This document shows positions 1-63,017 of a stretch of 64,000 bases of DNA, piece by piece. The stretch is from positions 2,656,001 to 2,720,000 of the forward strand of contig NZ_JAQNDL010000001.1 in the NCBI RefSeq assembly GCF_028368995.1. Direction: 5' to 3'. Within the stretch, counting starts at the first letter, position 1. Every line of letters begins with the position of its first letter. The notes below the pieces were generated by a model that did no database searches, had not been told where the DNA came from, and was given only the letters and a program-made list of their open reading frames with translations. The position numbers were made by a program, and so were the translations under genes. The stretch comes from Nannocystis bainbridge (GTDB lineage: Bacteria > Myxococcota_A > Polyangia > Nannocystales > Nannocystaceae).

Positions 1-1315
1 GGTCTTCGAGGCACGTGTTGGTCCAGTTGTAGGCGTCCTTGGTCGCCGACGGCGTCGCCGACACCTCGCGCCAGCGCGCCGCGTAGGCGTCGAGCGCCGT
101 CACCAGGATGTCGACCTCCACCCGTACCTGCGGCAGCGCCGCCCGCAGCGTCCGCTCCCGCTCCCCGTTCCACACCTCGTCGATGCTCTTGCCCGGCCGC
201 TCGTCGAGCTCGAAGGTCACCGTCTCCGGCAAGACCGCCGCCGCCGGCGTCGGCGGGTCGCCGGCGAAATACTGATATGCCCCGAAGGACATGGCCGCAG
301 AGACAGCCACGCCGGCGACCGCCAGCCCCGGCCGCCACACCCGTCGCCCGGCGGCCCGGGTCAGCGCAGCCAGCAGCGCTTCCATCGATCCGAACCGGGC
401 CTCCGGATCGGTCTGCAGCCCGCGCTCCAGCACCGCCTGCAGCGCCCGCGGCAGCGGCCGCGTCGGCTTGACCATCGCCTTGCGCTCGAACGCCTCGCAC
501 AGCTGGGCCACGTTGTCGCCGCGGAACGGCCGGTGCCCGTGCAACGCCTCGAACAACACCACGCAGAACGCGAACTGATCGCTGCGCGCGCTGGCCTGAC
601 GGCCCTGCAGCTGCTCCGGGGCCATGTACGCCGGCGTCCCGAGCACCGCGCCGGTGCGTGTCATCGGCTCGGCCAGGGCCGCCGCGTGGTCCTCGGTGGT
701 CTGCTCGGCCTCGGCGATCGCGTCCTCGCCGAGCCGGGCCAGGCCGAAGTCGGAGATACGGATCCGCCCGCCGCCGACGAGCACGTTGGCCGGCTTGAAG
801 TCGCGGTGCACCAGCCCCGCCGCGTGCGCCGCCGCCAGCCCGCGCCCGGCCTGCAGCAAGACCTCGACGATCTCCTGCCAGCGCCGCGGCCCGGCCCTGA
901 GCCAGTCGCCGAGGGTCCCGCCGCCCTCGTACTCCATCGCGATCCACACCTGCTCCGCGTGCACCCCGGCGTCGAACACCGCGAGCACGTTCGGGTGCTG
1001 CAGCCGCGCCATCGCCTGCGCCTCGCGCAGCAGTCGCTGCTGCCCCCGCGGCCCGAGCTGGCCCGGGTGCAGCAGCTTGAGCGCGACCGTGCGGTCGAGC
1101 TGCGGGTCGCGGGCCGCGTACACCACCCCCATCCCGCCGGCGCCGACCACCCGCAGCACTTGGAACCGGGCGATCGTGCTCGGCTCGTGCGGCTCGTCGA
1201 ACAGCGCCGCCGCGACCTGCCGGCGGATCTGCTCGAGCGGGCGCAGTGGTTCGTGGTCGGGCGCGTGCAACGTGTCGGAGCTCGGGGTCAAATCTTCGAA
1301 GGCGACGGCGGTCAT
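1..1315 (-). CDS. Hanks-type Ser/Thr protein kinase, 5' part only (runs off the left edge; absent from the ORF track)
   Basis: Manual minus-strand translation from ATG at 1315: MTAVAFEDLTP...RFQVLRVVGAGGMGVVYAARDPQLDRTVALK...HRDFKPANVLV...DFGLA...GTPAYMAPEQ. All catalytic motifs are intact. Confidence 0.93.
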   Translation of the reverse strand, partial: MTAVAFEDLTPSSDTLHAPDHEPLRPLEQIRRQVAAALFDEPHEPSTIARFQVLRVVGAGGMGVVYAARDPQLDRTVALKLLHPGQLGPRGQQRLLREAQAMARLQHPNVLAVFDAGVHAEQVWIAMEYEGGGTLGDWLRAGPRRWQEIVEVLLQAGRGLAAAHAAGLVHRDFKPANVLVGGGRIRISDFGLARLGEDAIAEAEQTTEDHAAALAEPMTRTGAVLGTPAYMAPEQLQGRQASARSDQFAFCVVLFEALHGHRPFRGDNVAQLCEAFERKAMVKPTRPLPRALQAVLERGLQTDPEARFGSMEALLAALTRAAGRRVWRPGLAVAGVAVSAAMSFGAYQYFAGDPPTPAAAVLPETVTFELDERPGKSIDEVWNGERERTLRAALPQVRVEVDILVTALDAYAARWREVSATPSATKDAYNWTNTCLED

Positions 1316-1414
1316 GGGAGGCTCTCTCCCGCGACGTTCCTCGAGCATGCCGCTCGATCACGACCGCGGACGATTTTTTTCACCGCCCGCGGCCGACCCG
1401 ACTACCATTCCCCC

Positions 1415-2026
1415 GTGGAGACCGACGAGGCGCTGGTGGCCGCGTGGCGCGGCGGGGACAAGCGGGCCGGCAGCCGGCTGTTCGCCCGCCACTTCGAGCC
1501 GATCGCCCGCTTCTTCTACAGCAAGGTCCAGACCGGCGTGGAGGACCTCGTGCAGCGCACCTTCCTCGCCCTCGTCGAGCGCAGCGACAGGCTGCCCGAG
1601 GGCGTGCCGGTCCGCGCCTACTTGTTCGGGATCGCGCGCCACCTGCTGCTCCGCCGCTTCCGCGACCAGTACCGCGACGGCATCTTCGACGGCGACACCG
1701 TCTCGGTCGCCGACCTCGGCGAGTCGCCCAGCGCGCTGATCGACCGCCGCGAGCACCTGCAGCTCCTCTACCAGGCCCTGCGCGCGCTGCCGCTCGAGCT
1801 GCAGATCGTCGTCGAGCTGTTCTACTGGGAGGGCTTCACCGCCCCGGCCATCGCCGCCGCGCTGGAGCTGCCCGAGGGCACCGTGCGCAGCCGCCTCCGC
1901 CGCGCCCGCGAGCTGCTCGGCGACCGCATCGCCGCCCTCGCCCCCGCCCCCGAGCTGGCCGCCGCGACCATGAACGACCTCGAGCGCTGGGCCCGCGAGC
2001 TGCGCGACCAGCTCGGCAAAGGTTGA
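1415..2026 (+). CDS. ECF (group 4) RNA polymerase sigma-70 factor
   Basis: C-terminal part of ORF 533..2026 from GTG 1415. Region 2: (V)ETDEALVAAWRGGD...EDLVQRTFL...RAYLFGIAR. Region 4 HTH: LPLELQIVVELFYWEG...IAAALELPEGTVRSRLRRARELL. Confidence 0.92.
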   Translation: METDEALVAAWRGGDKRAGSRLFARHFEPIARFFYSKVQTGVEDLVQRTFLALVERSDRLPEGVPVRAYLFGIARHLLLRRFRDQYRDGIFDGDTVSVADLGESPSALIDRREHLQLLYQALRALPLELQIVVELFYWEGFTAPAIAAALELPEGTVRSRLRRARELLGDRIAALAPAPELAAATMNDLERWARELRDQLGKG

Positions 2027-2104
2027 GCCTGTCCCTCGGAGCATGCCCTCCAGGACATGCCCCGGAGAGCATGTCCGCCAGGGCATGTCCCCGCGGCCAG
2101 CCTC
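2025..2104. repeat. 14-bp-period array of palindromic RRNCATGYCC decamers (6 units) between convergent genes
   Basis: Cores at 2028 (CCTG), 2042, 2056, 2070, 2084 (CATG) and 2098 (CAGC): GAGCCTGTCC-CTCG-GAGCATGCCC-TCCA-GGACATGCCC-CGGA-GAGCATGTCC-GCCA-GGGCATGTCC. Confidence 0.9.
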
Positions 2105-7139: not shown

Positions 7140-7318
7140 GCAAAGACGCGCCCCGCGCGATGCGTTCGGTCGCAGTCAGACGCACAACAGGAGGCATGAT
7201 AACGCCGTTCCTGCCACCCGTGCCCACTCCCTGCTTGGTCCTCCTGCGGCCTTCGCGCCAGTCAAACGAGGCGTGACTTCGCCCCTCGGGGCCGAGGCCG
7301 GCAGCCGCGCGGGCACTC

Positions 7319-7415
7319 CGACATGGCGCTCACGATATGTCCGCAAGCACATGTCCCTTCGCACAGCCATGGACCTGCCGCGGAGAGCTCGTCACATGTC
7401 TCTCGGGACAGTTCG
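7319..7415. repeat. 14-bp-period decamer array (two sub-registers)
   Basis: Cores at 7322, 7336, 7350, 7364, then 7395 and 7409 (e.g. GCACATGTCC, TCACATGTCT-CTCG-GGACAG). Confidence 0.75.
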
Positions 7416-18021: not shown

Positions 18022-18179
18022 GGACCCTGCGAGGCTACCGATCGCGCACCGGCAACGCTACTCGTTTGCGGCCCACACAGCGTCGCTCTTATAACGTTGC
18101 GTGCGCAACTACCTCCGCAGCGAGGCCGCCGCCCGACCCGTTTATACAGTTGCGCCTGCAATCACCGTTGCAGTCGCGC

Positions 18180-18623: not shown

Positions 18624-18904
18624 GGGCCCTCGCGCTCGGATGTGCCACGCTCGCAGCCTACCCGAAACCGGCGCCGCCCCGCCCACGGCGCCGCTGGTGT
18701 GCTCGTCGGCGACGCCCGGGCCGACGAAATTTAGACCTGTCCCTCGGGCCATGTCCACGAGCGCGACCTCGCCCCGCGACGCGCTGTTCCCCCCCGCGCG
18801 ACCGCTTCGCCGCCCCCTGCAGGCCCCGCAGACCGACCTGCTCGCCTCCCTCGAGCGCCGCGCCACGCCTCCCCTCCGGCCGCCCGCGCGCGTAGACTCG
18901 CGCC

Positions 18905-19804
18905 GTGAAGGACCACCTCGGCGAGCTCGCGGCGCTCGGCACGGCCGTGTGCTGGGCGCTCGGCTCGCTCGCCTTCACGCGGGCCGGGCGGCGGATCGGC
19001 AGCTTGCCGCTCAACGTCATCCGCATGGCGCTCGCGCTGGTGTTCGCCGCGGTCGCCGGCCTCGCGCTGCGCGGGCGGGCCCTGCCGACCGACGCGACGG
19101 CGGACCAGTGGTGGTGGCTGGGGCTGTCCGGCTTCGTCGGCTATTTCCTCGGCGACCTGTGTCAGTTCCGGGCGTTCATCGAGATCGGTCCGCGCCTGAC
19201 GCTGCTGCTCATGGCGCTCGCTCCGCCGCTGACGGCCGTGATCGATTTCGCGGTGCTCGGCCAGCGGCTCGCCCCACTGTCGCTGACGGGCATGGCGATC
19301 ACCCTCGCGGGTGTCGCTTGGGTCCTGTCCGAAAGGACACCCGCAGGGGCGACGCCGGGGCCGGCCACGCCGCGGTTGCGGGGGATCTTGCTCGGGCTCG
19401 GGGGCGCGCTCGGGCAGGCGGTGGGGCTGGTGCTGAGCAAGCGCGGGATGGTCGGCTGCGAGCCGCTGGCGGGGGCGCAGATCCGGATGCTCGTCGGGCT
19501 CGGCTGCTTCGTCGCCCTGGTGCTGGCGACCTCGACCACGCCGCGCCTGCGAGCCGCCCTGCGCGACCGCGGCGCCCTCGGCTACGCCACCATCGGCGCG
19601 CTGCTCGGCCCCTTCCTCGGCGTCTCGCTGGCCCTGTTCGCGCTCCAGCGCACCTCCGCCGGGGTCGCAGCCAGCCTGCTCAGCACCTCGCCGATCTTCA
19701 TCATCCCGCTGGCCGCGCGCCTCGAGGGCGAGCGCGTCGGCGTGCGCGGGCTGCTCGGGGCCGTGGTCGCGGTCACCGGCGTGGCCCTGCTGTTCGCCGG
19801 CTGA
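18905..19804 (+). CDS. DMT/EamA-family transporter
   Basis: About 10 TM helices in two repeats; LSGFVGYFLGD..F.AF..IGPR; SLLSTSPIFIIPL. Confidence 0.92.
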   Translation: MKDHLGELAALGTAVCWALGSLAFTRAGRRIGSLPLNVIRMALALVFAAVAGLALRGRALPTDATADQWWWLGLSGFVGYFLGDLCQFRAFIEIGPRLTLLLMALAPPLTAVIDFAVLGQRLAPLSLTGMAITLAGVAWVLSERTPAGATPGPATPRLRGILLGLGGALGQAVGLVLSKRGMVGCEPLAGAQIRMLVGLGCFVALVLATSTTPRLRAALRDRGALGYATIGALLGPFLGVSLALFALQRTSAGVAASLLSTSPIFIIPLAARLEGERVGVRGLLGAVVAVTGVALLFAG

Positions 19805-20527: not shown

Positions 20528-20542
20528 CGCGGCTGTGCTCCG

Positions 20543-20700
20543 GGACATGTCCGCCAGGGCATGTCTGAACGGGCATGGTTGATCGGGCATGTCCGAGAGG
20601 ACATGCCCGATGGTTCATTCACCGCGACGGGCCGGCTTCGCCCGACCCGGCTGGACGGTCAGCGACATGGCCTTTCGGTCATGTCCACTGGAACACGCGG
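20543..20700. repeat. 14-bp-period decamer arrays between convergent genes
   Basis: CATG cores at 20546, 20560, 20574, 20588, 20602 (CATT at 20616); second run at 20666, 20680, 20694. Confidence 0.9.
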
Positions 20701-21635: not shown

Positions 21636-21776
21636 GCGCGAAGCATAGTGAACTCGCGCGCCCGCGCCCACCTCCACGCGGCGGACGGGCCACGGCCGAG
21701 CTCGCCGGCCTCGGTGCATGCACACCGAACTGGAGCCGGCGTCTCACCCGGGGAGCATGTCCCCCGGAGCGTGTCC

Positions 21777-26772: not shown

Positions 26773-26838
26773 CCGAGTGTCCCGCAGGACATGCCCCATC
26801 AAGCATGTCCTCGACGCCATGTCCCCCAGGACATGCCC
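26773..26838. repeat. 14-bp-period decamer array between convergent genes
   Basis: Cores at 26776, 26790, 26804, 26818, 26832. Confidence 0.9.
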
Positions 26839-26842
26839 CTTA

Positions 26843-31615: not shown

Positions 31616-31721
31616 GCCTGGCGGCCAGGACATGTCTTCAGGCGCATGTCCTCGGGGACATGGCGCCGAGGACATTCCCCATGCGACATGTCCCGAGCGA
31701 CCTGTCGCAAGCGACAGATCG
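31614..31721. repeat. Longest 14-bp-period decamer array (8 units) between convergent genes
   Basis: Cores at 31617, 31631, 31645, 31659, 31673, 31687, 31701, 31715. Confidence 0.92.
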
Positions 31722-35448: not shown

Positions 35449-35563
35449 TTCACCGGGCGCCTGACCTTTCAGCGCCCGCCACGGCCGCGGCCGGACCTGT
35501 CCCTTCAGACATGTCCGCCGCGGCCGCGCTCGTTTCGCCCCCGTCGCTGCGGTCTCTTCGGAC

Positions 35564-39728: not shown

Positions 39729-42611
39729 GTGCGTTTAAAGAATATTGCTGCGGGTAGTGTCTCGGCGACGATCGTGACAGCGCTCTGCTGGCTCGCACCG
39801 GAGCCAGCCGAGGCGTTCGCCCCGCAAGCAGGCCGGCGCGCGAGCGTCGAGCTCAGCGCCGCGGCCGGCGGCAGCGCGAGGACCTCGCGCGCCGTGATTC
39901 ACGCCGCCCCGCCGGTCGCCCAGGCCGCCTATCGCCGCTTCGCTGCCGCCCTCGAGCCCGGCGACGTGGTCTGGGATCGGGCCACCGGCGTGCCGCTGCG
40001 GCTGTGGGGCCTGAGGGGCGCGGCTGTCCCGAGGGCCATGCCGAGCCGCGACCTCGAGCTGCGCAGCGCCCACGACCTGCTCGCGCGCCACCTCGACCTG
40101 CTCGCCCCGGGCAGCGCCGCCGCCGACTTCGTGCTCGTCGGCGACGACCTCTCCTCCGGCATCCACAGCCTCGGCTTCGCCCAGCACTACCGCGGCCGCC
40201 CGGTCCTCGGCGGTCAGGTCAGCTTCCGCTTCAAGGCCGGGCGCCTGGCCATGATCGGCAGCGAGGCCCTGCCCAGGGTCCAGGCTGTGCTCACGGACAG
40301 CCCCGTGCCCGAGCCCGTCGCGCGCGAGCGGGCCCGCGAATGGATCGGCGGCGACGCTCGCCCCGATCGCGTCGAGGGCCCCTTCATCCTCCCGCTCGTC
40401 GACGACGAGCGCGTCCGCGGCTACCGCGAGGTCCTGCGGGTCACCGTGCACACCACCGCCCCGATCGGTCGCTGGGCCGTCTACGTCGACGCCGCCACCG
40501 GCGAGCCGCTGGCGCGTGAACAGCTGCTGCGCTTCGCCTCCGGCAACCTCAAGATCGACGCCCCGGTGCGCGGGCCCGGCGGTCAGCGGCTCGAGTTCGC
40601 GGCCGCCAACCTCGGCGTGGTCGTCAACGGCGCCCCCGCCGTCACCACCATCACCGGCGCGGTCAGCTTCGCCGACGGCAGCCCGGCCACCGTCGCCACC
40701 ACCGTGCTCGGCTCGTTCGTCGCCGTCGCCAGCGAGGCCGGCGCCCCGGCGGCCACCAACCTGGCCCTTCCGCCAGGTGGTCAAGCCACCTGGAGCGTCG
40801 CCGCCGACGAGTTCCTCGACGCCCAGCTGACCACCTACGTGCACGCCGACCGGGTCAAGCAGATGGTCCGCGCCATCGCCCCCGACTTCGCCTTCGTCGA
40901 CCAGCAGATGCCGGCGATCGTCAACATCAATGACGTCTGCAACGCCTTCGCCGACGGCGAATCGATCAACTTCTTCCAGTCCGACGCCCAGTGCGAGAAC
41001 ACCGGCCGGATCGCCGACGTGGTCTATCACGAGTTCGGCCACAACGTGCACTTCCAGGGCATCATCCCCGGCGTCGGCTTCCCCGACGGCGCGCTGTCCG
41101 AGGGCATCTCCGACTTCCTGAGCGCGACCATCACCGACTCGCCCGACCTCGCGCCCGGCTTCTTCAAGGGCGACCCCGGCCCGCTGCGCGCCCTCGATCC
41201 GCAGGGCTCCGAGTGGCACTGGCCCGAGGACAACACCGAGATCCACGACGCCGGCCGGATCATCGGCGGCGCCCTCTGGGACCTGCGCAAGGCCCTGCGG
41301 AACAAGCTCGGCGCCGGCCCCGGCGTGGCCCAGGTCAACAAGCTGTGGTTCGAGTCGATCCGCCGCGCGGTCGACATGCCGAGCATGTACCCCGAGGTCT
41401 TGCTGGCCGACGACGACGACGGCGACCTGTCCAACGGGACACCCAACGAGTGCGAGATCAACGTCGCCTTCGACGCCCACGGCCTCGTCGGTCCGTCGGC
41501 GGTCGCGGCCGACGTCGTCACCTCGGCGCCGACCCCCGACGGCGTGCTCGTCGACCTGATCGTGTCGGGCCAGCAAAAGGCCTGTCTCAACCTCAGCCCG
41601 CTCGGCGCCGAGCTGCACTGGCGCGTGCGCGGCGAGCAGCAGAACGGCATGGTGCCGATGAACCCGAGCGCCGGCGGCTTCGCCGGCATCATGCCCAACG
41701 TCGGCGACGGCAAGGTGCTCGAGTATCAGGTGCGCCTCGTGCTGCAGGGCGGCACCACCGTGGTGTTCCCGACCAACGCGGCCGACCCGACCTACGAGCT
41801 CTACCTCGGCCCCGTCACCAACATCTTCTGCGAGGACTTCGAGTCGGGCCCGGCGGCGCAGGGCTGGCAGCTCAACGGCGATTGGGCGTTCGGCCCGCCC
41901 GCCGGTGGCCCCGACCCCGCCGCCGCGTTCAACGGCAGCAGCGTCGCCGGCAACGGCCTGGCCCCGCCCGGCACCTACGAGAGCTTCCTCGAGAGCCACA
42001 TGCTCGGGCCCGTCATCAACGTCGCCGGCCACAACACCGTGCGCCTGCAGCTGCGCCGCTGGCTCGAGGTCGAGGACGCCAACTTCGACCAGGCGCTCGT
42101 GCTCGCCAACGGCAGCGAGGCGTGGCGCAACGCCACCAACGACGCCGGCAAGCTGCACCACATCGACGGCGAGTGGCGGTTCCAGGACATCGACCTCACC
42201 CCGTTCGTCAGCAACGGTCAGGTCCAGCTCGAGTTCATCCTCGAGGGCGACGAGGCGCTCGAGTTCGGCGGCTGGAACATCGACGAGCTGTGCGTCGTCG
42301 GCACCGGCTCCGTCACCCAGGGCGTGTGCGGCGACGGCATCATCAGCGGCATCGAGGCCTGCGACGACGGCAACCTCGACGCCGGCGACGGCTGCAGCCC
42401 GAGCTGCACCATCGAGTCGATCGACCCGACCACCGGCCCCGGCGGCCCCGTCTTCACCGACACCGACACCGACACTGACACCGACACCGACTCGGCCACC
42501 GGCGGCGGCGACAAAGAGTCGGGTTGCGGCTGCAATCAGGGGGCGGGGGACCTCGGCGCCGCCGTGCTCGCCCTCGCCGGCCTCGTCATGCTCCGCCGCC
42601 GTCGCTCGTAG
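39729..42611 (+). CDS. Paralogous secreted zinc metallopeptidase with MYXO-CTERM anchor
   Basis: YHEFGH...EGISD; DDDDGDLSNGTPN.C; CGDG..EACDDGN; (TD)n linker; SGCGC + TM + RRRRS. Confidence 0.9.
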   Translation: MRLKNIAAGSVSATIVTALCWLAPEPAEAFAPQAGRRASVELSAAAGGSARTSRAVIHAAPPVAQAAYRRFAAALEPGDVVWDRATGVPLRLWGLRGAAVPRAMPSRDLELRSAHDLLARHLDLLAPGSAAADFVLVGDDLSSGIHSLGFAQHYRGRPVLGGQVSFRFKAGRLAMIGSEALPRVQAVLTDSPVPEPVARERAREWIGGDARPDRVEGPFILPLVDDERVRGYREVLRVTVHTTAPIGRWAVYVDAATGEPLAREQLLRFASGNLKIDAPVRGPGGQRLEFAAANLGVVVNGAPAVTTITGAVSFADGSPATVATTVLGSFVAVASEAGAPAATNLALPPGGQATWSVAADEFLDAQLTTYVHADRVKQMVRAIAPDFAFVDQQMPAIVNINDVCNAFADGESINFFQSDAQCENTGRIADVVYHEFGHNVHFQGIIPGVGFPDGALSEGISDFLSATITDSPDLAPGFFKGDPGPLRALDPQGSEWHWPEDNTEIHDAGRIIGGALWDLRKALRNKLGAGPGVAQVNKLWFESIRRAVDMPSMYPEVLLADDDDGDLSNGTPNECEINVAFDAHGLVGPSAVAADVVTSAPTPDGVLVDLIVSGQQKACLNLSPLGAELHWRVRGEQQNGMVPMNPSAGGFAGIMPNVGDGKVLEYQVRLVLQGGTTVVFPTNAADPTYELYLGPVTNIFCEDFESGPAAQGWQLNGDWAFGPPAGGPDPAAAFNGSSVAGNGLAPPGTYESFLESHMLGPVINVAGHNTVRLQLRRWLEVEDANFDQALVLANGSEAWRNATNDAGKLHHIDGEWRFQDIDLTPFVSNGQVQLEFILEGDEALEFGGWNIDELCVVGTGSVTQGVCGDGIISGIEACDDGNLDAGDGCSPSCTIESIDPTTGPGGPVFTDTDTDTDTDTDSATGGGDKESGCGCNQGAGDLGAAVLALAGLVMLRRRRS

Positions 42612-45251: not shown

Positions 45252-45315
45252 GGGTGTCCTCGAGAGCATGTCCGAGGGAACATGCCTGAGAGACCATGTC
45301 TTTCAGGACATGACG
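45250..45315. repeat. 14-bp-period decamer array between convergent genes
   Basis: Cores at 45253, 45267, 45281, 45295, 45309. Confidence 0.9.
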
Positions 45316-45452
45316 TATAGTACATACTCTCAAGCATTGCTCTAAACGCCGCCTTCCATGCGGCGACGAGTGACGAGCCTCGGCTGCCCCGAACACGGCC
45401 GGCCCGCGCCGGCCTCCGAGTCACCCTGCCCAGGGCAGCGAGCGCCGCCGGT

Positions 45453-48573: not shown

Positions 48574-48675
48574 CCCACGTGACGCCAGCCGCGCGCGCAG
48601 GCATGCCCACGCGTGACGCCAGCGCCGCGCGCATGCATGCCCACGCGTGACGTCAGCCCTGCGCGCAGGCATGCT
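48574..48675 (+). repeat. 34-bp tandem repeat, 3 copies
   Basis: GTGACG at 48579, 48613, 48647; unit approximately CCCACGCGTGACGCCAGC..CGCGCGCAGGCATG. Confidence 0.75.
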
Positions 48676-49127: not shown

Positions 49128-49211
49128 CGCACGCTCACCGCGCGATCAGACTTCACGTCGACACCCGCTGCTCGCGTCTCGCCTCACGCAGGTCAGGCCC
49201 GACCGCGATCA

Positions 49212-49305
49212 TGACCTGCCTGTTCGGTCATGGCCTCGAGGACATGCCTTTAAAAGCATGTCCATGAGCACATGGCCTTTCGAACATGCCTGAACGGTCA
49301 GCTGA
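49212..49305. repeat. 14-bp-period decamer array (7 units) between convergent genes
   Basis: Cores at 49215, 49229, 49243, 49257, 49271, 49285, 49299. Confidence 0.92.
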
Positions 49306-51803: not shown

Positions 51804-51884
51804 TCCGGCGCGGAACCGCCCCGCGCGGCCTTGCGCCGGCCGCCCGCGGCGCGAAGCGGCCGCCGATTGGGTGATACTTCCGCG

Positions 51885-54800
51885 GTGCCGGACACACCGA
51901 CTGCGCAGCTGCCGGGCGTGCAGCTCCTCGAGGAGGTCGGCCGCAGCGCGCGGAGCGTGGTCTATCGGGCCCGGCGCGGCGACTTCGTGGTCGCGGTCAA
52001 GCTGCTGCGCACCGACGCCGGCGAGCTCGAGACCGCGGCGCTGAGCTTCCGCCGCGAGGCCGCCACTCTGGCGACGCTGTCGCACCCGTGCGTGGTCCAG
52101 GTGTTCGAGATCGGCGACGCCGCCGGCCTGCCGTACGTGATCATGGAGTACGTCGAGGGCCGGACCCTGGCCGCGCGGCTGGCCGCCGGCCCGCTGTCCG
52201 AGGCCGAGGCGATCCAGCTCGGCCTGCAGCTCGCCGGCGTGCTCGGCGAGATCCACCGCCGGCGCCTGCTCCACCGCGAGATGCGGCCGCAGAACGTGCT
52301 GCTGCTGCCGAACGCCAGCGGCCTGGTCAAGCTGGTCGACTTCGACCTCCGCGACGGCGCGCCGCCGGGCGCCGCCGGGCCCGCGGCCTATCGCGCGCCC
52401 GAGCAGGGCGGCCTGCTCGACCGCACCGTCGACGCCCGCTCCGACCTCTACGCGCTCGGGGCCATGCTGTTCGAGGCGGTCTCCGGCCGCCCGCCGTTCC
52501 TCGCCCGCGAGCCCGACGAGCTGCTGCGCCAGCACGCCGTGCTCGCCCCGCCGCCGCTGCGCGAGCTGGTCCCGCGCTGCTCGCCCGCGTTCGCGGCGGT
52601 GGTCGCCCGCCTGCTGGCCAAGGACCCGGACGACCGGTTCCAGACCGGCGAGGCCACCGCCGCCGCCCTGCTGGCGATCGACGAGTCCATTGGGACAGGT
52701 CCCTTCGGACATTTCGCAAAGGACAGGCTCGACGGCCCGCTGGTCGGCCGCGAGCCCGAGCTCCGCCGGCTCGAGGAGGCTCACGCGCGCGCCCGCGAGG
52801 GCCTCGGCGGCGGCGTGCTCGTCACCGGCGAGCCGGGCAGCGGCAAGTCGCGGCTGCTCGCCGCGTTCGCGGCCGCGCGCGCGGGCGACGGCGTGCCTGT
52901 CCTTTCAGTCAGGTGCCAGCCCGACGCGCGCCCGCTCGCCGGCCTGCGCGCCGCCGTCGACCCGCACCTGCGGCGGCTGCGGCCCGACACCGCGGCCCTG
53001 GCCGGCGGCGACGGCGGCGAGCTGGTGTCGGCCACCGTCGACGCGCTGGCCCTGATCGCCGAGGCCAACCCGGGCGCGGTGCTGTGGGTCGACGACGCCG
53101 AGGTCATCGACGACGCCACCCTCGCCGCCCTGCGCCTGCTCGTCGGCCGGATCGCCGAGCTGCCGCTCCTGCTGGTCACCGTCGGCCGGTTCGAGCGCTG
53201 GGCCGGCGAGCTCGATCGCGACGGCGCCTGCGAATTTTTGGCCCTCGAGGCGCTGTCCGAGCCCGCCGTCGCCGCCTTGATGGCGGCCATGCTCGGCCAG
53301 CGGCGCGTCGACGACGAGCTGGTGCGCCTGGTCGAGAGCCGCAGCGGCGGCCTGCCGCTCGGCGTCATCGAGTACGTGCGCGCCATGCTCGACGGCGGGG
53401 TCCTGCGGCCGTTCTGGGACGTCTGGCAGGTCGAGGTCGCCGGCCTCGCCAACCTCCACCTGCCTGGCGACGTCCAGCAGTTGCTGCTCACCCGCGTCGC
53501 CCGCCTGCGCGAGCGCACCCGCGACGCCCTGCGCGCCGCCGCGGTGCTCGGGCCCGACGTGAAGCCGGCGCTGCTGGCCCGCGTGCTCGGCCGCGACCCG
53601 CTCGGCGTGTCGCAGGCGCTGTCCGAGGCCGCCGCCGCCCGCCTGCTCGAGCGCGGCCCGCTCGGCGACTACGTGTTCGTCCACAACCGCGTGCGCGAGG
53701 CCCTGCTGGCCGGCCTCGACGGCGCCGGCCTGGCCTCGTACCACCAGCGCGTCGCCGAGGCGCTCGACAATGTCGACATCGACGGCGACGGCCTGCACCG
53801 CCTGGCCCACCACTACCTCGCCGGCGACCACTCCAAGCCCGAGCGCGCGATCGAGGTCTGCCTGCGCGCCGGTCGCCTGGCCCAGGCCGAATCGGCCGAC
53901 GAGGACGCCTACCGCTACTTCCGCCGCGCCGACGAGCTGCGCGCCCGCGTCGGCCTGCCGCCCGACCCGCGCCTCGACGAGGGCCTCAGCGAGGTCTGCA
54001 GCCGCACCGGTCGCCACGAAGAGGCCGAAGTACATGTCTCTCGGGCCATGTCGCAAGAGACAGACCCGGCCCGGCGCGCCCAGCTGCTGCGCCGGCGCGC
54101 CCGCGTCGAGCTGTTCCGGCTCGAGCACAAGCGCGCCCTCGCCAGCCTGGCCGCCGCGTTCGCCGAGGTCGGCGCGACCATGCCGTCGCGCAGCCCGCTG
54201 GCGCTGCTGCTCAGCTTCGGCATGGTCCTCGCCGCCGCGCTGATCGCCGCCACCGGGGTCGGCCGCGCCGTCGGTCCGCGCCGCGCCCGCGCCACCCTGC
54301 TCGCCCAGCTCTACGACGACGCCGTGCGCGTCGCCTACTTCGACATCCGCACCGCCACCCTGCTGCAGGCCGTCGGCCGCCTGCGCTACTACGGCGAGCG
54401 CCTCGGCCCATCGGCCGAGCTGGCGCGGGCCAAGATCGCCCTCGGCATCATCTACGCCGCCGTCGGCCGCTCGCACGCCGCCCGCCGCTGCGCCGCCGAG
54501 GGCGTGGCCATGGCCACCGCCGTCGGCGACCGCCGCACCCTCGCGCGCGTCAGCTTCTACGCCGCCGCGATCCACGAGTCGTGCGGCGACGTGCTGGCCT
54601 CCGAGCAGATGCTCGCGCGCACCCTCGCCGATCATCACCGCTGGCTCGAGAACTGGGGCCTGGTGTTCACCCACCAGCTGCTCGCGCTCAACCTGTGGGT
54701 GCGCGGGCACGACGGCCGGGCCCTCGCCGTCCTGCGCCGCCTGACCGCCGAGCTCGAGCTCGAGGGCGACCGCACCACCCGCCAGGCCACCGTCTTCACG

Positions 54801-57155
54801 CACGGCCTGCACGCCGTCGTCCTGGCCGGCACCGGCCGCCGCGACGACGCCTTGCGCCACCTCGGTCGGGCCCGCGGCGGCGCGGCCAGCTTCGCCGAGG
54901 ACCGCGGCCAGCTGGCCAACCTCTACGGCCTCGAGGTCGTCACGCTCGTCCTCCTCGGCGAGACCTCGGCCGTCGTCGACGACGCCATCGCCCGCTTCGA
55001 CGCCCTGTCGCTGCGCCCGCGCGAGGTCCCCTACCACGTCCGCTACGCCTACGCCTTCGTCGTCCACGCCCGCCTCCACCAGGCCCTGGCCGCCCCGCCG
55101 GCCCTGCGCGGGCCTCACCTCGTCCGCCTGCGCGCCGCCCTCGACACCCTCACCCTGCTGCCGAACCACCCGGTCCTGCGCGGCTTCCTCCTACTTGGCC
55201 GATCGGGCATGTCCTGGATGACAGGTCTCTTCGACCATGCCCTCACGGACCTGTCCGAAGCGGAGCAGCTCGCGTTCGCCAGCGAGAACCGGTGGCTGCG
55301 CTGCGAGGCGCTGCACCACCGGGCCCACGCGCTGTGCGGCGCCGGGCGGGTCGACGCCGGCCGCCGCGAGGCCCGGGCCGCCGCCGCGCTGGCCGAGGAG
55401 CTGGGCTGGCGCCCGCGCGCCGAGGCCATCCGCCGCACCTTCGACCTCGGCGCCGTCCACGAGCCGCGGGGCACCAGCGACGGCCACCTCGGCGACGTCC
55501 AGGCCGCCCGCCTGCGCCGGCACCTCGACGCATTGCTCGAGCTCAGCCTCGCCTCCGCCACCGCGCGCGCCTTCGAGGAGCAGGCGCGGATCGCCATCGA
55601 CGAGCTCGCGCGCCTGCTGGCCGCCGAGCGCTGCGCCCTGTTCCTGTGCGACGACACCGGCAAGCTCGAGTTCAAGGTCGGCCGCGACGCCCGCGGCGGC
55701 GAGCTCGCGGCCGACTTCGGCGTCGTCCGCGACGTCGTCGAGCAGGTCCAGAGCACGCGCGAGCCGATCGTCGTGTCCGGCGAGGACCGCGGCGGCCGCG
55801 GCCGTCACAGCGCCATGGCGGCCCCGCTGATCCTCAAGGATCGCATGATCGGCATCGTCTACCTCGACAACCGCCTGGTCCGCGGCGCCTTCACCAGCGG
55901 TGACGTCGAGATCTTGTGCGCCATCGCCGGTCACATCGCCATCGCCCTCGAGACCGCCCGCGCCGCCCAGCTCGAGGCCCAGGTCGTCGCCGCCGCGCAG
56001 GAGAAGTCCGCCCTGCTCGAGCACGCCACCAGCGCCGTCGGCATCGGCATCGCCGTCCTCCAGCCCGACGGCGAGCTCGCCCGGCACAGCCCGATCCTCG
56101 CCGACATGACCAGCCGCTGGCCCTCCGTCGCCGACTGGTGGGCCGGCGCCGCCCGTCAGCTGCTCCTGCCCGAGCCGCGCCCGTGCCCCCACTGCGGCGA
56201 GGTCCAGTCGCTCGGCCGCAGCGTCGCCGACCTCGTCCAGGACGGCGAGCGCCAGGTGTTCGAGATCACCTTCACCGGCCACTTCCACGAGCTCGACCTC
56301 GCCACCCCCGGACATGTCCTTTTGGTCAGCGACATCACCTCGCGCAAGATCTCCGAGGAGAACCTGCTGCGGCTCAACGAGGAGCTGACCTCCGCGCGCG
56401 ACCAGGCCCTGGCCGCCAGCCGGGCCAAGAGCACCTTCCTCGCCAACATGAGCCACGAGCTGCGGACCCCGCTCAACGCCATCATCGGCTTCAGCGAGAT
56501 GTTGGTCGAGGACGCCGAGCACGTCGGCAGCCGGCAGATGGTCACCGACCTCGGCAAGATCCGCATGTCGGGCTCGCACCTGCTCGACCTCATCAGCACC
56601 ATCCTCGACCTCTCCAAGGTCGAGACCGGCAAGATGCAGCTCGAGATCGTCGAGTTCTCGCTGCCCGCGCTGGTCGCCCGGGTCGCCGCCATGATCACGC
56701 CGATGATCGCCAAGAACCGCAACATGCTGGCACAGGCGATCCAGACCGACATCCACACCATGGTCGGCGACGAGACCAAGGTGAAGCAGATCCTCTTCAA
56801 CCTGCTGTCGAACGCCGCCAAGTTCACCACCGACGGCGTCATCACGCTCGGGGTCGAGCACGAGTTCGACGAGGCCCTGGGGCGCGACGACATCGTCTTC
56901 ACCGTCGAGGACACTGGCATCGGGTTCCGCCCCGACCAGATCGACAAGCTGTTCCAGGACTTCTACCAGGCCGACATGTCGACCACCCGCAAGTACGGCG
57001 GCACCGGCCTCGGACTCGCCATCGTCCATCGCTTCTGTCGCCTCATGGGCGGCGAGATCGGCGTGTCGAGCGAGCCCGGGATCGGCTCGACCTTCCGCGT
57101 CCGGTTGCCGCGCCACCTGGTCGAAGTGCCGCACAGCGAGGCGCCCGCGGCCTGA
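51885..57155 (+). CDS. Hybrid signalling protein: degenerate Ser/Thr kinase - AAA/STAND ATPase - helical repeats - GAF - histidine kinase
   Basis: Kinase-like N-terminus ([18 protein letters not shown]); Walker A GEPGSGKS; GAF (GIVYLDN...AFT); [16 protein letters not shown]; [10 protein letters not shown]; GGTGLGL. Confidence 0.92.
55191..55256. repeat. 14-bp-period decamer array (5 units) embedded in the hybrid kinase CDS
   Basis: Cores at 55194, 55208, 55222, 55236, 55250; further in-gene arrays at 52693-52730, 52893-52916, 54030-54067, 56310-56333. Confidence 0.8.
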
Positions 57156-60176: not shown

Positions 60177-63017
60177 ATGTCCGCGCTCGCGCAGCGACTG
60201 GCCGAGTTCGCGGCCCGCGTCGGCTCGCTCGTGGGCGCCGGGCCGGGCGACGCCCGGGCCTTCTGCGACGGCCTGCTGCGCGCCTTCGGCTGGCCTGACC
60301 TTCACCATGCCGGCGGCCAGTTCGAGCCGCCGAACCGGCTGCTCCTCGGCTCGACCTTGCTGCTCGAGCTGCACCCGCGCGGCACCGACCTCGCCCGCCA
60401 TCGCGCGCCGCTGTTCGAGCACTGGCAGTATCACACCGCCCACCCGCGCTACGTCGCCCTGTGCGAGTTCACCGGGCTCGAGCTCCACGAGTTCGCCGTG
60501 CAGCTGCACGAGCCCGTCGATCGCCTCGCCGTCGCCGACCTCCCGCGCGACCACGCCGCCCTGACCTTCCTCCTGCCCGAGCCGCAGCCGCCGCGGTTTC
60601 GCAACGATCGCGTCGCCGTCACCCGCGACGCTGCCGCGCGGATCACCGCCGTGTTCGACCGGCTCGTCGCCCGCGGCGTCGACCGCGACCGCGCCCGCCG
60701 CTGCAGCCTGCGCATCGTCCACGCCCTGTTCGCCGCCGACCTCGGCCTCCTCCCGCGCACGTCCCTCGAGTCGCACCTGCACGAAGACGCCGCTCTCGAC
60801 CCCCTCTCGGCCGACGAGCGCGACCTGCTCGCCCACGCCGCCGCTGCCGACTGGTCGCGCGTCCAGCTGCCCGTGTTCGGCGCCCTGTTTCAGGCCGGCA
60901 TGGACCCAGGCCGCCGCCACGCCCAGGGCGCGCACTTCACCGGCGAGGCCGACATCCAGCGCCTCGTCCTGCCGACCCTCGTCCGTCCCTGGCGCGAGCG
61001 CATCGCCGCCGCCGACTCGCCTGCGGCCTGGCTCGCCCTCCACGCCGAGCTCACCGCCCTGCGCGTGCTCGACCCCGCGTGCGGCAGCGGCGACATCCTC
61101 CACGTCGCCTACCGCGAGCTGCTCCGGCTCGAGGCCGAGCTGCTGGCCCGGCTCCACGCCGAGCTCGGCCCCGTCCCGCTCCCGGCCCGCGTCTCGCTGG
61201 CCAACCTCGCCGGCATCGACCGCGACCCCTTCGCCATCGAGCTCGCGCGCACCACCCTGCACCTCGCCGACGCCTATGCCCGCCGCGACCCCGGCCTGTC
61301 CCTCGAGACATCTGATTCCCGCGAGCTCGGCCTGTCCCTCGAGACATCTGATACCCGCGACCCCGGCCTGTCCCTCGAGACATCTGATGCCCGCGAGCTC
61401 GCCCTGTCCCTCGAGACATCTGATTCCAGCGTGCCCGGCGACCTCCGCCGCGCCGACGCTCGCCACGCGATCGGCCTGTCCCGGGAGACATCCGCGCGCC
61501 CCGACCTGCGGATCGCCGACGCCCTCTTCACCGACTGGCCCCCTGCCTCCGTGATCCTCGGCAACCCGCCGTTTCAGGCCAAGAACAAGATGCAGCGCGC
61601 CTTCGGCCCCGAGTATCTCCGCCGCCTGCGCGCCGCCTACCCGCAGGTCTCCGGCCGCGCCGACTACTGCGTCTACTGGTTCCGCAGGGCCCACGACCTG
61701 CTGCCGCCTGGCGGTCGCGCCGGCCTCGTCGGCACCAACACCATCCGTCAGAACGAATCACGCGACGGCGGCCTCGGCCACATCGTCGCCACCGGCAGCA
61801 TCACCGAGGCCGTCGCCGCCGAGGTGTGGTCCGGCGACGCCGCCGTCAACGTCTCCATCGTCAGCTGGGTCAAGCAGAGCGAAGTCCGCGGGAAAAAATA
61901 CCTCTCGTGGCAGACCGGCGACGCCGCCCACAGCCCGTGGCAGACCGTCATCGTCGACCGCATCGGCCCCGCGCTCAGCCCCGACACCGACGTCAGCGCC
62001 GCCACCCCGCTGCGCGCCAACCTCGTCGCCGGCTGCTATCAGGGCCAGACCGTCGGCCACGACGGCTTCCTGCTCGCGCCTGCCGAGGCCCGCCGCATGC
62101 TCGCCGGGGCCCCTGGCGACGCCGCAGTGCTGTTCCCCTACCTCGGCGGCGACGACCTGCTCGGCCGCAAGGACGGCGGCCCTGGCCGCTGCGTCATCGA
62201 CTTCGGCGAGCGCGACCTGCCCGCGGCCCGGGCCTTCGCCGCCCCGTTCGCGCGCGTCGCCGCGGCCGTCTTGCCCGACCGTCGCCGCGCCGCCGCCGAT
62301 GAGCTGCGGCGCAACGCCGAGGTCGCGCAGGGCCACCCTCGCGCCCGCGTCAATCGCCACCACGCCGGCTTCCTCGATCGCTGGTGGCAGCTGTCCTGGC
62401 GGCGCGGCGAGATGCTGGCCGCGATCGCTGCGCTGACCCGCTTCATCGCCTGCGTGCGCGTCACCCGGCGCCCGATCTTCGAGTTCGTCAGCCCGCAGAT
62501 CCGTCCGAGCGACGCCCTGGTGGTGTTCGCCCGCGACGACGACTACTCGTTCGGCGTCCTGCAATCGGCCCTGCACTGGCAGTGGTTCGCTGCCCGCGGC
62601 TCCACCCTCAAGCGCGACTCTCGTTACACCTCGAGCACCGTGTGGGGCGCCTTCCCCTGGCCGCAGGCCCCGAGCGCCGCGCAGGTCCGCCAGATCGCCG
62701 TGGCCGCCCGCCAGCTCCGCACGATCCGCGCCGCCGCCCTGCAGCAGCACAGCCTGTCGCGCCGCCAGCTCTACCGCACGCTCGACCGCCCCGACCGCAC
62801 CCCGCTGCGCGACGCCCACGAGGCGCTCGACGCGGCCGTGCGCGCCGCCTACGACCTGCGCGGCGACCCGCTCGGATTCCTCCTCGAGCTCAACCGCGAC
62901 CTCGCCGCCCAGGAAGCGTCCGGCGCCGCGATCGTCGGCCCCGGCCTCGACGCCCTGAGCCCGAGCCCCGAGCTACGCGCCGCCTGCACCTCGAGCGACT
63001 GCATCACCCCGGCCTGA
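60177..63017 (+). CDS. MmeI-like (Type IIL/IIG) N6-adenine DNA methyltransferase with degenerate nuclease domain and a repeat insertion
   Basis: GAHFT, VLDPACGSGD (motif I), ILGNPPF (motif IV), ADYCVYWF, GLVGTNTI.Q, FGVLQS..H..W, RYTSSTV...FPWP. Confidence 0.88.
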   Translation: MSALAQRLAEFAARVGSLVGAGPGDARAFCDGLLRAFGWPDLHHAGGQFEPPNRLLLGSTLLLELHPRGTDLARHRAPLFEHWQYHTAHPRYVALCEFTGLELHEFAVQLHEPVDRLAVADLPRDHAALTFLLPEPQPPRFRNDRVAVTRDAAARITAVFDRLVARGVDRDRARRCSLRIVHALFAADLGLLPRTSLESHLHEDAALDPLSADERDLLAHAAAADWSRVQLPVFGALFQAGMDPGRRHAQGAHFTGEADIQRLVLPTLVRPWRERIAAADSPAAWLALHAELTALRVLDPACGSGDILHVAYRELLRLEAELLARLHAELGPVPLPARVSLANLAGIDRDPFAIELARTTLHLADAYARRDPGLSLETSDSRELGLSLETSDTRDPGLSLETSDARELALSLETSDSSVPGDLRRADARHAIGLSRETSARPDLRIADALFTDWPPASVILGNPPFQAKNKMQRAFGPEYLRRLRAAYPQVSGRADYCVYWFRRAHDLLPPGGRAGLVGTNTIRQNESRDGGLGHIVATGSITEAVAAEVWSGDAAVNVSIVSWVKQSEVRGKKYLSWQTGDAAHSPWQTVIVDRIGPALSPDTDVSAATPLRANLVAGCYQGQTVGHDGFLLAPAEARRMLAGAPGDAAVLFPYLGGDDLLGRKDGGPGRCVIDFGERDLPAARAFAAPFARVAAAVLPDRRRAAADELRRNAEVAQGHPRARVNRHHAGFLDRWWQLSWRRGEMLAAIAALTRFIACVRVTRRPIFEFVSPQIRPSDALVVFARDDDYSFGVLQSALHWQWFAARGSTLKRDSRYTSSTVWGAFPWPQAPSAAQVRQIAVAARQLRTIRAAALQQHSLSRRQLYRTLDRPDRTPLRDAHEALDAAVRAAYDLRGDPLGFLLELNRDLAAQEASGAAIVGPGLDALSPSPELRAACTSSDCITPA
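61284..61496 (+). repeat. In-frame 36-bp tandem repeat inside the methyltransferase; each unit carries a CCTGTCC-N4-AGACATC dyad
   Basis: Units start at 61284, 61320, 61356, 61392 (A-B-A-B), plus an in-register degenerate unit at 61464; encodes (RD/RE)xGLSLETSD. Confidence 0.92.

What the first reader, a model, noticed from the sequence alone, without database searches (positions are those of the whole stretch)
273..61496. Window-wide 14-bp-periodic palindromic DNA code (GGACATGTCC-N4)n: candidate undescribed chromosome-binding system
Seen: a decamer of consensus RRNCATGYCC (best GGACATGTCC) recurs in runs whose centres are exactly 14 bp apart, so neighbours form a dyad TGTCC-N4-GGACA. By manual scan I find about 30 loci, for example near 273, 2025, 7319, 9807, 18733, 19321, 20543, 20663, 21034, 21361, 21753, 24070, 26773, 30099, 31614, 32498, 32537, 33472, 35493, 37304, 40020, 40281, 41423, 45250, 49212, 52693, 52893, 54030, 55191, 56310 and 61292. 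The 4-nt spacers differ between units and the decamers drift, but the spacing is held. That is not the signature of slippage repeats, an IS/MITE or CRISPR. Inference: these are sites for a protein that binds cooperatively or polymerises along DNA, analogous to (but not matching) parS, matS, SlmA/Noc sites, REP/BIME or HIP1. I do not recognise this motif as described, but I cannot search the literature.
Basis: partly seen in the sequence, partly recalled or inferred. Interest (0 to 1): 0.92.

Follow-up and report, generated by a model that had tools for sequence, protein, structure and literature searches.

The report
Nannocystis 14-bp dyad arrays at gene ends
A soil myxobacterium (genus Nannocystis) carries thousands of short arrays of the half-site GGACA, repeated in alternating orientation every 14 bp just after stop codons, which look like a new kind of REP-like gene-end element whose reader is still unknown.

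Summary
TGTCC-N4-GGACA (up to 1 mismatch) occurs 40 times in the window against 1.5 expected. Genome-wide, CATG pairs at lag 14 number 3736 against about 100 at neighbouring lags. A PWM chain finds 3334 arrays of 2-12 units, 1.24% of the 11-Mb genome. The element is restricted to Nannocystis: 10 of 10 other genus genomes have it, and essentially none of about 420 other Myxococcota genomes do.

The arrays are gene-end elements, not chromosome-domain sites. They start 0-20 bp after stop codons. They occupy 52% of convergent, 23% of tandem and 13% of divergent intergenic regions. About 10% lie inside genes.

The basic unit is the dyad TGTCC-N4-GGACA, and only the N4 and N0 spacings are used. Arrays grow by tandem duplication. 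Constraints are strand-symmetric and hairpin covariation is weak, which favours double-stranded DNA read by a symmetric protein. No reader was found: there is no RAYT and no PadR.

Function is inferred only: a transcription-unit end or insulator element. The whole family also appears to lack Rho. I found nothing in print on this motif.

The parts
271..298 (.). 2-unit array
   Evidence: PWM chain; dyad at 278 with 1 mismatch
2023..2092 (.). 5-unit array that ends 11 bp from the stop of the AcrB-family gene 2103-5213(-)
7317..7358 (.). 3-unit array 3' of the Ser/Thr kinase gene 7434-8867(-); a further dyad lies at 7397
18731..18758 (.). 2-unit array
19326..19339 (.). single perfect dyad
20541..20610 (.). 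5-unit array that starts 14 bp after the stop of the DUF924 gene 19820-20527(+), in a convergent intergenic region
   Evidence: arrays at the same intergenic region in 3 other species
20661..20688 (.). 2-unit array that overlaps the stop of ORF 20679-21725(-)
21751..21778 (.). 2-unit array that overlaps the stop of the MMPL-family gene 21777-25166(-)
26785..26840 (.). 4-unit array that ends 3 bp from the stop of the HpaB-like gene 26843-28399(-), convergent; kept in place and register in 4 other Nannocystis species
30104..30117 (.). single perfect dyad
31626..31709 (.). 6-unit array between a + strand stop (TGA at 31613-31615) and the stop of ORF 31733-34576(-)
33470..33511 (.). 3-unit array (4 CATG at 14-bp spacing) inside a coding region, conserved in 4 species
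35491..35518 (.). 2-unit array between the GST gene 34813-35448(+) and the APP1-like gene 35564-36703(+)
37309..37322 (.). single perfect dyad
41428..41441 (.). single perfect dyad
45262..45331 (.). 5-unit array 56 bp after the stop of gene 44160-45206(+), convergent with 45453-46628(-)
49210..49293 (.). 6-unit array; arrays of 3-6 units lie at the same intergenic region, beside a conserved TCA (reverse-strand stop), in 5 other genus genomes, but spacers and unit numbers differ
52691..52732 (.). 3-unit degenerate array inside the kinase/AAA/GAF/histidine-kinase gene 51831-57155(+), in the linker between the kinase and AAA_16 domains
54028..54055 (.). 2-unit array inside the same gene
55203..55258 (.). 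4-unit array inside the same gene, conserved in 5 genus genomes
61283..61439 (.). 36-bp tandem repeat (4.4 copies), each copy with one dyad of the CCTGTCC-N4-(G/A)GACATC subtype; lies inside the MmeI-family gene 60177-63017(+)

Best explanation
SHOWN. This is a Nannocystis-specific, high-copy family of short repeat arrays built from the 5-bp half-site GGACA in alternating orientation: head-to-head with no gap (GGACA|TGTCC, which makes the CATG core) and tail-to-tail across exactly 4 bp (TGTCC-N4-GGACA). That gives a 14-bp period. There are about 3300 arrays of 2-12 units, mostly no more than 6. They sit at the 3' ends of protein-coding transcription units, often touching or overlapping the TGA stop, and they fill about half of all convergent intergenic regions. 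Arrays lengthen by tandem duplication of 14-bp units or multiples. Spacers then randomise while half-sites and spacing are kept.

INFERRED. The half-sites are kept because a symmetric (dimeric), sequence-specific protein reads them on double-stranded DNA. It would bind each TGTCC-N4-GGACA dyad, so neighbouring dimers sit 14 bp (about 120 degrees of helix) apart.

INFERRED, weaker. The bound arrays mark or insulate the ends of transcription units, as a roadblock, pause or topological barrier. Such a barrier would be passed while a ribosome follows RNA polymerase and would act once the ribosome leaves at the stop codon. This lineage has no detectable Rho.

In kind it is a REP/BIME-like gene-end element, but it is not a member of the REP-RAYT family.
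For: Reality and scale: (3334 arrays of at least 2 units against 40 in a reversed-sequence control; 1380 against 3 for at least 3 units).

Genus restriction: pattern found in 10 of 10 other genus genomes (7-532 hits; own genome 848), 1 of 8 other genera of the family (2 hits) and 0 of 12 other families. In a phylum sample, 2 of 400 other genomes had 1 hit each. Genus name from 95% identical flanking genes.

Gene-end placement (my own GC3-based ORF calls, 7443 genes):
- Arrays of at least 3 units: 499 convergent, 421 tandem, 60 divergent, 400 inside ORF calls.
- Median 21 bp from the upstream stop.
- Occupancy 52%, 23% and 13% of convergent, tandem and divergent intergenic regions.
- Distance peaks at -8, -3, 6 and 11 bp show the TGA stop embedded in a unit.

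Strict geometry: TGTCC-N4-GGACA 1987 against no more than 16 for the other spacings N0-N12. GGACA-N0-TGTCC 956 against no more than 19. GTCC-N4-GGAC 2651 against 124-317.

Reading at the double-stranded DNA level:
- The unit logo is mirror-symmetric when oriented by transcription.
- The central spacer dinucleotide is strongly non-random and symmetric: CG 2.25, GA 2.14, TC 1.88, AA 1.56, TT 1.44 against TA 0.29, AC 0.21, GT 0.22.
- It is also symmetric in oriented tandem contexts: TT 137 / AA 133, TC 104 / GA 101.
- Loop strand asymmetry is not significant (p = 0.19).
- The G:U over A:C excess is no larger than in non-pairing controls (1.27 against 1.17 and 1.18).
- Neighbouring spacers are not complementary.

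Growth by duplication.

Maintenance: arrays are present at the same intergenic regions in other species, with different spacers and unit numbers.

Tolerated in genes: 142-185 arrays lie deep inside ORFs, and window examples lie in inter-domain linkers.

Rho RNA-binding domain: not found in 0 of 19 genomes of the family, found in 10 of 12 other families. Full-length Rho was not found in 4 of 5 family genomes queried, including the own genome; the fifth gave only a weak ATPase-domain match.
Against: - No reader protein was identified. Binding and function are inference only.
- There is a weak but real hairpin-type signal. Non-consensus Watson-Crick combinations across the spacer are 1.27x expected, and 1.25x for the outer arm, against 1.02x for a skip control. 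Real arrays fold about 1 kcal/mol better than order-permuted ones.
- Placement directly after stop codons is in itself a transcript-level clue.
- Highly expressed units (three rRNA operons, groEL, atpC) end in classical hairpin plus T-run terminators, not arrays.
- 37 of 112 crude classical terminators also have an array, so arrays are not simple substitutes for them.
- Only 7 of 102 tRNA genes have an array within 150 bp downstream.
- Sister genera equally lack Rho but have no arrays.
- Gene calls are home-made and noisy. PWM thresholding biases within-unit statistics.
Confidence: 0.45

Rival explanations
1. RNA-level element. The arrays are transcribed as 3' UTRs and fold into runs of 5-bp-stem, 4-nt-loop hairpins, or longer decamer-decamer helices. 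These would terminate or pause RNA polymerase without a U-tract, or protect mRNA 3' ends from exonucleases as E. coli REPs do. A hairpin-specific RNA-binding protein might be involved.
For: - Placement 0-20 bp after the stops of protein-coding genes and in convergent intergenic regions.
- The dyad is the commonest unit.
- Arrays of at least 4 units fold at a mean of -31 kcal/mol, slightly better than synthetic (-29.2) or order-permuted (-30.2) arrays.
- Compensatory excess of 1.27x.
- Classical terminators are rare after protein genes: 112 of 7443 by a crude scan.
- No Rho was found.
Against: - Loop length is fixed at 4 while loop sequence shows no strand-specific preference. UUCG 54 against CGAA 37 and GAAA 30 against UUUC 28.
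- G:U tolerance is not above the compositional control.
- Pairing is only 48-60% at three of the five stem positions.
- No T-run follows arrays.
- Strong operons use classical terminators.
- Arrays are rare after tRNA genes.
- No Rfam family matches the window.
Confidence: 0.25
2. Selfish or near-neutral repeat. An unknown sequence-specific enzyme, or slippage combined with template-switch correction of near-palindromes, seeds and extends arrays. They persist where they do least harm: downstream of genes and in protein linkers. There would be no host function.
For: - Recent tandem duplications.
- About 10% of arrays lie inside genes, at inter-domain linkers.
- Strong depletion from divergent (promoter) regions.
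- Fast turnover of unit number and spacers between species.
- Weak arm-to-arm correction signal.
- Genus-limited, as many REP/REPIN families are.
Against: - No RAYT/Y1 transposase in 0 of 11 genus genomes.
- Half-sites stay near consensus while spacers within an array are close to random (mean 1.31 of 4 identical against 1.11 for the control). Drift after duplication cannot give that.
- Arrays persist at the same intergenic regions across species.
- In tandem regions with a median length of 360-390 bp they hug the upstream stop (21 bp) rather than lying anywhere.
Confidence: 0.2
3. Methylation- or restriction-linked hyper-abundant palindrome, comparable to cyanobacterial HIP1. The CATG or GGAC cores would be kept because a DNA methyltransferase or repair system acts on them.
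For: - A palindromic core with CATG at its centre.
- CATG is not avoided genome-wide: 39,940 seen against about 28,700 expected from base composition (expectation is my arithmetic).
- An MmeI-family restriction-modification gene lies in the window and carries dyad repeats.
Against: - A methylase target would not need a 14-bp register or the N4 rule.
- Conservation spans 10 bp.
- CAGG/CCTG variants of the core are common: 345 against 956.
- No methylome data were available.
Confidence: 0.07

Closest known systems
REP/BIME elements with RAYT transposases (Enterobacteria, Pseudomonas, Stenotrophomonas, Xanthomonas)
   Same: High-copy, mostly extragenic palindromic units. Clusters of regularly spaced units in alternating orientation. 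Located after genes and between convergent genes. Lineage-specific sequences. Proposed roles in protein binding, chromosome organisation and termination (abstract and passages of PMC2817692).
   Different: - No GT(A/G)G head (logos).
- No RAYT gene in 0 of 11 genus genomes.
- The unit is a 14-bp dyad with a free 4-bp spacer, not a 20-40-bp imperfect palindrome.
- The register is exact and units abut.
- Stems are held by consensus rather than by covariation.
- About 10% of arrays lie within genes.
Tandem operator arrays for cooperative repressors (MetJ met-boxes, omega heptads, Fur hexamers) and 14-bp dyad operators of the CRP/FNR type; PadR operators ATGT-N8-ACAT
   Same: Short symmetric half-sites at fixed spacing, repeated head to tail. 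Each adjacent pair of decamers reads ATGT-N8-ACAT, the PadR consensus (passages of PMC4517056). The MetJ, omega, Fur and CRP/FNR comparisons are recalled, not tested.
   Different: Those arrays occur at a few promoters. Here there are thousands of arrays at gene 3' ends, and they are depleted from divergent promoter regions. The PadR family PF03551 was not found in the genome.
Hyper-abundant lineage-specific short motifs: Neisseria DUS and Haemophilus USS inverted pairs at terminators, cyanobacterial HIP1, TAACTGA heptamer arrays of Beggiatoaceae
   Same: Genus- or family-specific 'dialect', thousands of copies, partly at gene ends, function unresolved for some. For the TAACTGA arrays I saw only the search listing and the start of the abstract (PMC4679880). 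DUS, USS and HIP1 are recalled.
   Different: None has a palindromic half-site pair with alternating N0/N4 spacing and a 14-bp register. DUS/USS and HIP1 are mostly solitary and frequent in coding DNA. TAACTGA repeats are direct repeats.
Classical intrinsic terminators
   Same: Position after genes, and dyad symmetry.
   Different: No U-tract follows arrays. The same genome uses textbook hairpin plus T-run terminators at rRNA operons, groEL and atpC.

Membership tests
REP/BIME-RAYT | High-copy (more than 100), mostly extragenic palindromic repeat | tested here: met
   3334 arrays. 980 of 1380 arrays of at least 3 units lie outside ORF calls.
REP/BIME-RAYT | Conserved GT(A/G)G head next to the palindrome (PMC2817692) | tested here: not met
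   Unit and flank logos show no such head. Flanks carry about 0 bits.
REP/BIME-RAYT | Cognate RAYT (Y1 transposase) gene flanked by REPs | tested here: not met
   PF01797 found in 0 of 11 Nannocystis genomes. The search works in 6 control genomes and in 8 other relatives.
REP/BIME-RAYT | Clusters of regularly spaced units in alternating orientation (BIME) | tested here: inconclusive
   Half-sites alternate at N0/N4, but at a scale of 5 bp, not whole REPs separated by linkers.
CRISPR | Identical repeats of 23-47 bp separated by unique spacers of similar length | tested here: not met
   10-bp degenerate cores and 4-bp spacers. A real CRISPR array in a sister genus looks quite different (72-bp period).
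PadR operator/regulator | ATGT-N8-ACAT operator together with a PadR-family protein | tested here: not met
   The motif fits, but PF03551 gave 0 matches in the genome and rang in all 14 controls.
Intrinsic (Rho-independent) terminator | GC-rich hairpin immediately followed by a U-tract | tested here: not met
   No T enrichment after the last unit. Classical examples exist elsewhere in the genome.
Chromosome-organising sites (parS, matS, Noc/SlmA sites) | Tens of sites with a regional (ori or ter) bias | tested here: not met
   About 30 arrays per 100 kb on all five contigs, with a few deserts. Placement follows gene ends. Ori and ter were not located.
DNA uptake sequences (DUS/USS) | Motif bound by a competence receptor and biased uptake | not testable with these tools
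   No test run. The strict 14-bp register is not a DUS/USS feature (recalled).

The most novel reading that the evidence does not exclude
A genus-specific dimeric DNA-binding protein polymerises on the arrays, one dimer per TGTCC-N4-GGACA and each turned about 120 degrees from the last, up to about six units or eight helical turns. It forms a bidirectional roadblock or insulator at the ends of transcription units. Ribosome-coupled RNA polymerase passes it inside genes, but it stops polymerase once the ribosome leaves at the stop codon. This would be a protein-and-array termination system that evolved in a lineage without Rho.
Probability: 0.15. Interest if true: 0.9.

Novelty: new variant of a known kind. 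Interest (0 to 1): 0.74.

Why it matters
The arrays make up 1.2% of an 11-Mb genome and lie at most convergent gene junctions in an entire genus, yet they are built to a simple, exact rule (GGACA half-sites, N0/N4, 14-bp period) that I could not find described.

If a protein reads them, it is a new abundant DNA-binding system tied to gene ends. It could explain how a large, GC-rich, apparently Rho-less bacterium ends or insulates transcription.

If they are selfish, they are a REP-like family that spreads without a RAYT.

Either way the motif is a practical marker. It flags transcription-unit ends in Nannocystis, a producer of natural products, and it is a ready-made bait for pull-down experiments.

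Tried and rejected
- RAYT/REP membership: PF01797 absent from the 11 genus genomes searched.
- PadR reader: the operator consensus fits, but there is no PadR family hit in the genome.
- Long hairpins through complementary spacers: neighbouring spacers are no more complementary than random pairs (1.10 against 1.11).
- RNA wobble test: an apparent G:U excess (413:326) was also present in non-pairing controls, so I dropped it as evidence.
- 'Dialects' in sister genera:
  - No non-codon periodic 4-mer in 200 kb of G011 or 41 kb of G013.
  - No over-represented 5-bp dyad in G011 (200 kb), G237 (120 kb) or G017 (60 kb).
  - The one strong signal, in G013, was a CRISPR array confined to one locus.
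- Viral contigs: one record with one small array at its end and 6 dyad matches with up to 1 mismatch in 59 kb. Uninformative.
- Rfam: no family at gathering score in the window.
- RNA evidence: no RNA holder listed for window 18001-28000. The listed runs are contigs with small shares, so I did not use read laying.
- Reader by autoregulation: I listed 109 perfect dyads in divergent regions. That gave no candidate, only a subfamily, gACCTGTCC-N4-GGACATCC (421 sites), without a clear gene-relative orientation.
- Reader by phylogenetic profile: not feasible with the caps. No candidate protein is proposed.
- Orthologous alignments show invariant CATG columns. Because aligners line up periodic cores, I do not count that as independent proof of site-by-site conservation.
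- Literature searches that found nothing on this motif. Supplements were not consulted.

Full report
OBSERVATION. The window is 70-75% G+C. It lies at C1:2656001-2720000 of an 11.05-Mb, 5-contig genome. The cited example at 31626-31709 reads as six decamer-like cores spaced 14 bp apart.

- TGTCC-N4-GGACA with up to 1 mismatch occurs 40 times against 1.54 expected, with a largest shuffle value of 4.
- CATG-N10-CATG occurs 24 times against 0.56.
- The CATG autocorrelation peaks only at lags 14, 28 and 42 (24, 19, 12; all other lags no more than 4).
- Genome-wide, the 39,940 CATG give 3736 pairs at lag 14, 2073 at 28, 1586 at 42 and 751 at 56. Lags 13 and 16 give 72 and 79.

A PWM built from 5802 periodic units (consensus GGACATGTCC with an AT-enriched 4-bp spacer) chains into arrays of these sizes:

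| Units | 2 | 3 | 4 | 5 | 6 | 7 | 8 | 9 | 10 | 12 |
|---|---|---|---|---|---|---|---|---|---|---|
| Arrays | 1954 | 494 | 352 | 287 | 178 | 52 | 11 | 3 | 1 | 2 |

The reversed-sequence control gives 37, 2 and 1 arrays of 2, 3 and 4 units. In all there are 3334 arrays and 9814 units, 1.24% of the genome.

WHAT THE UNIT IS. The exact dyad TGTCC-N4-GGACA occurs 1987 times against 9.5 expected. No other spacing from 0 to 12 exceeds 16. The head-to-head form GGACA-N0-TGTCC (the decamer) occurs 956 times, and other spacings no more than 19. Of the dyads, 888 have neither a CA nor a TG flank, so they stand alone. GTCC-N4-GGAC occurs 2651 times against 124-317 for other spacings. The middle of the decamer is AT in 956 cases and CT or AG in 345.

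The CATG is the junction of two half-sites. No conserved flank, head or terminal repeat exists.

WHERE IT IS. I called genes myself from long ORFs with high third-position G+C: 7443 calls with 81-83% coverage, and some errors such as shadow ORFs and over-long starts.

- Arrays of at least 3 units: 499 between convergent genes, 421 between tandem genes, 60 between divergent genes and 400 inside ORF calls. Of those 400, 148 lie in the first tenth of the ORF, which indicates over-extended starts.
- In tandem regions the array sits a median 21 bp from the upstream gene's stop and 180-200 bp from the next start.
- Among intergenic regions of 40-1000 bp, 52% of 1195 convergent, 23% of 2635 tandem and 13% of 1056 divergent regions hold an array.
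- Of the 7443 genes, 2225 have an array within 400 bp downstream, with a sharp peak at 0-20 bp. Phase peaks at -8, -3, 6 and 11 bp mean that the TGA stop is often part of a unit, as CATGA or TGACATG.
- Density is about 30 arrays per 100 kb on all contigs, with a few deserts.
- Only 7 of 102 predicted tRNA genes have an array within 150 bp downstream.
- 185 arrays of at least 3 units lie at least 200 bp inside ORFs. Of these, 142 have coding-type G+C on both sides, the same rate as random positions in those genes (77% against 72%).
- In the window, three arrays lie in inter-domain linkers of a real kinase/AAA/GAF/histidine-kinase gene and are conserved in five genus genomes.

WHO HAS IT. A flanking HpaB-like gene is 94-95% identical to four named Nannocystis genomes.

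- The two-decamer pattern with up to 2 mismatches is found in 10 of 10 other genus genomes (7-532 hits; 848 in the own genome). The low counts are in fragmented assemblies.
- It is found in 1 of 8 other genera of the family (2 hits) and in 0 of 12 other families.
- In a 400-genome sample of the phylum, two genomes have one hit each.
- Samples of four sister genera (60-200 kb each) show no analogous periodic or dyad motif. One strong signal was a CRISPR array.

HOW IT EVOLVES. Several of the longest arrays are obvious recent tandem duplications with periods of 14, 42 or 56 bp. Within an array, spacers are only slightly more alike than random (1.31 against 1.11 matches of 4).

At orthologous intergenic regions every species examined has an array: four species downstream of the HpaB-like gene, four at 31626, five at 49210, three at 20541. 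Unit numbers and spacers differ, and most arrays cannot be aligned beyond the cores. One 2-unit array (21751) has no counterpart in N. exedens.

Duplication explains the exact register. It does not explain why half-sites stay near consensus while spacers randomise. That needs selection, or drive, by something that reads the half-sites.

DNA OR RNA.

For a hairpin:
- Non-consensus but complementary base pairs across the spacer are 1.27x expected, and 1.25x for the outer arm. Non-complementary double changes are 0.84-0.93x, and a skip-one control gives 1.02x.
- Real arrays fold 1-2 kcal/mol better than shuffled-unit or order-permuted arrays.

Against an RNA reading:
- Pairing at three of the five stem positions is only 48-60%.
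- Loop length is fixed, but loops show no strand preference in tandem contexts (chi-square p = 0.19). TT/AA are 137/133 and TC/GA are 104/101.
- The unit logo is mirror-symmetric when oriented by transcription.
- The G:U excess equals that of non-pairing controls.
- No T-run follows arrays.
- The central spacer step has strong, strand-symmetric preferences. That is what indirect readout of double-stranded DNA by a symmetric protein would give.

I therefore favour a dimeric DNA-binding reader. The hairpin signal is possibly a by-product of template-switch correction between adjacent arms.

FUNCTION (inferred). The genome uses textbook hairpin plus T-run terminators at all three rRNA operons, at groEL and at atpC. 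A crude scan finds such terminators after only 112 of 7443 genes, against arrays after 1867 genes, and 37 genes have both.

The Rho RNA-binding domain was not found in any of 19 genomes of the family, but was found in 10 of 12 other families of the class. A full-length Rho query found nothing in four family genomes: the own genome, a closed one-contig genus genome, one further genus genome and one sister genus. A second sister genus gave only a weak ATPase-domain match.

An array-bound barrier that ribosome-coupled polymerase can pass, but uncoupled polymerase cannot, would fit three things: the placement at stops, the tolerance inside genes and the bidirectional symmetry. This is conjecture. 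Sister genera without Rho have no arrays, which weakens it.

COMPARISON AND NOVELTY. The closest known kind is REP/BIME (features from PMC2817692, abstract and passages). The defining GT(A/G)G head and RAYT gene are absent, and the architecture is different. The PadR operator consensus fits the sequence (PMC4517056, passages), but no PadR protein is encoded. Six literature searches found no description of the motif. I rate it a new variant of a known kind (a gene-end palindromic repeat family), with a fair chance of hiding a new protein-DNA system.

LIMITS.
- No expression, methylation or binding data.
- Home-made gene calls.
- PWM ascertainment.
- Orthology examined only around this window.

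Noticed in passing
whole genome and relatives (G000-G018): The Rho RNA-binding domain PF07497 was not found in any of 19 genomes of the family, including 11 Nannocystis genomes, one of them a closed one-contig genome. It was found in 10 of 12 other families of the class. A full-length Rho query also found nothing in the three Nannocystis genomes and one sister genus queried; a second sister genus gave only a weak ATPase-domain match. The family may lack Rho.
   Followed up: partly
window 60177-63017 (+), repeat at 61283-61439: This is an MmeI-family type IIL restriction-modification gene (N-terminal, methyltransferase, target-recognition and C-terminal domains). It carries an in-frame 36-bp tandem repeat of 4.4 copies, each with one dyad, inside the methyltransferase region. 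The gene may be disrupted or variable.
   Followed up: no
genome-wide, e.g. C2:1484190-1484467, C2:2171017-2171322, C1:3223467-3223591: A subfamily of single dyads has asymmetric flanks, gACCTGTCC-N4-GGACATCC (421 sites). Some are repeated at 36-100-bp intervals upstream of genes. No clear orientation rule was found.
   Followed up: partly
G000 C1:2062846, C1:4463069, C5:64878 (5S rRNA); L129; L130: Identical classical terminators (a GC hairpin followed by TTTTTTATTT) follow all three 5S rRNA genes. groEL and atpC also end in hairpin plus T-run terminators.
   Followed up: yes
L114 (G013:C19:20001-40000): A large CRISPR array in a sister genus: 83 repeats that contain TCCCT-N6-AGGGA, with a period of about 72 bp.
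   Followed up: partly
window 32495-32575 and 48578-48674: Other tandem repeats lie in the window: a 39-bp unit in 2.1 copies that holds two 1-mismatch dyads, and a 34-bp unit in 2.9 copies with a GCATGCCC core. Neither was examined further.
   Followed up: no
window 36737-39697 and 39729-42611: Two adjacent large paralogous-looking genes each carry a DUF4215 cysteine-rich repeat, a domain I recall as typical of myxobacteria.
   Followed up: no
array size distribution, whole genome: Array counts fall slowly from 3 to 6 units (494, 352, 287, 178) and then drop sharply (52, 11, 3). This suggests an upper limit near 6 units, about 84 bp or eight helical turns. PWM chaining may split longer degenerate arrays.
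   Followed up: no
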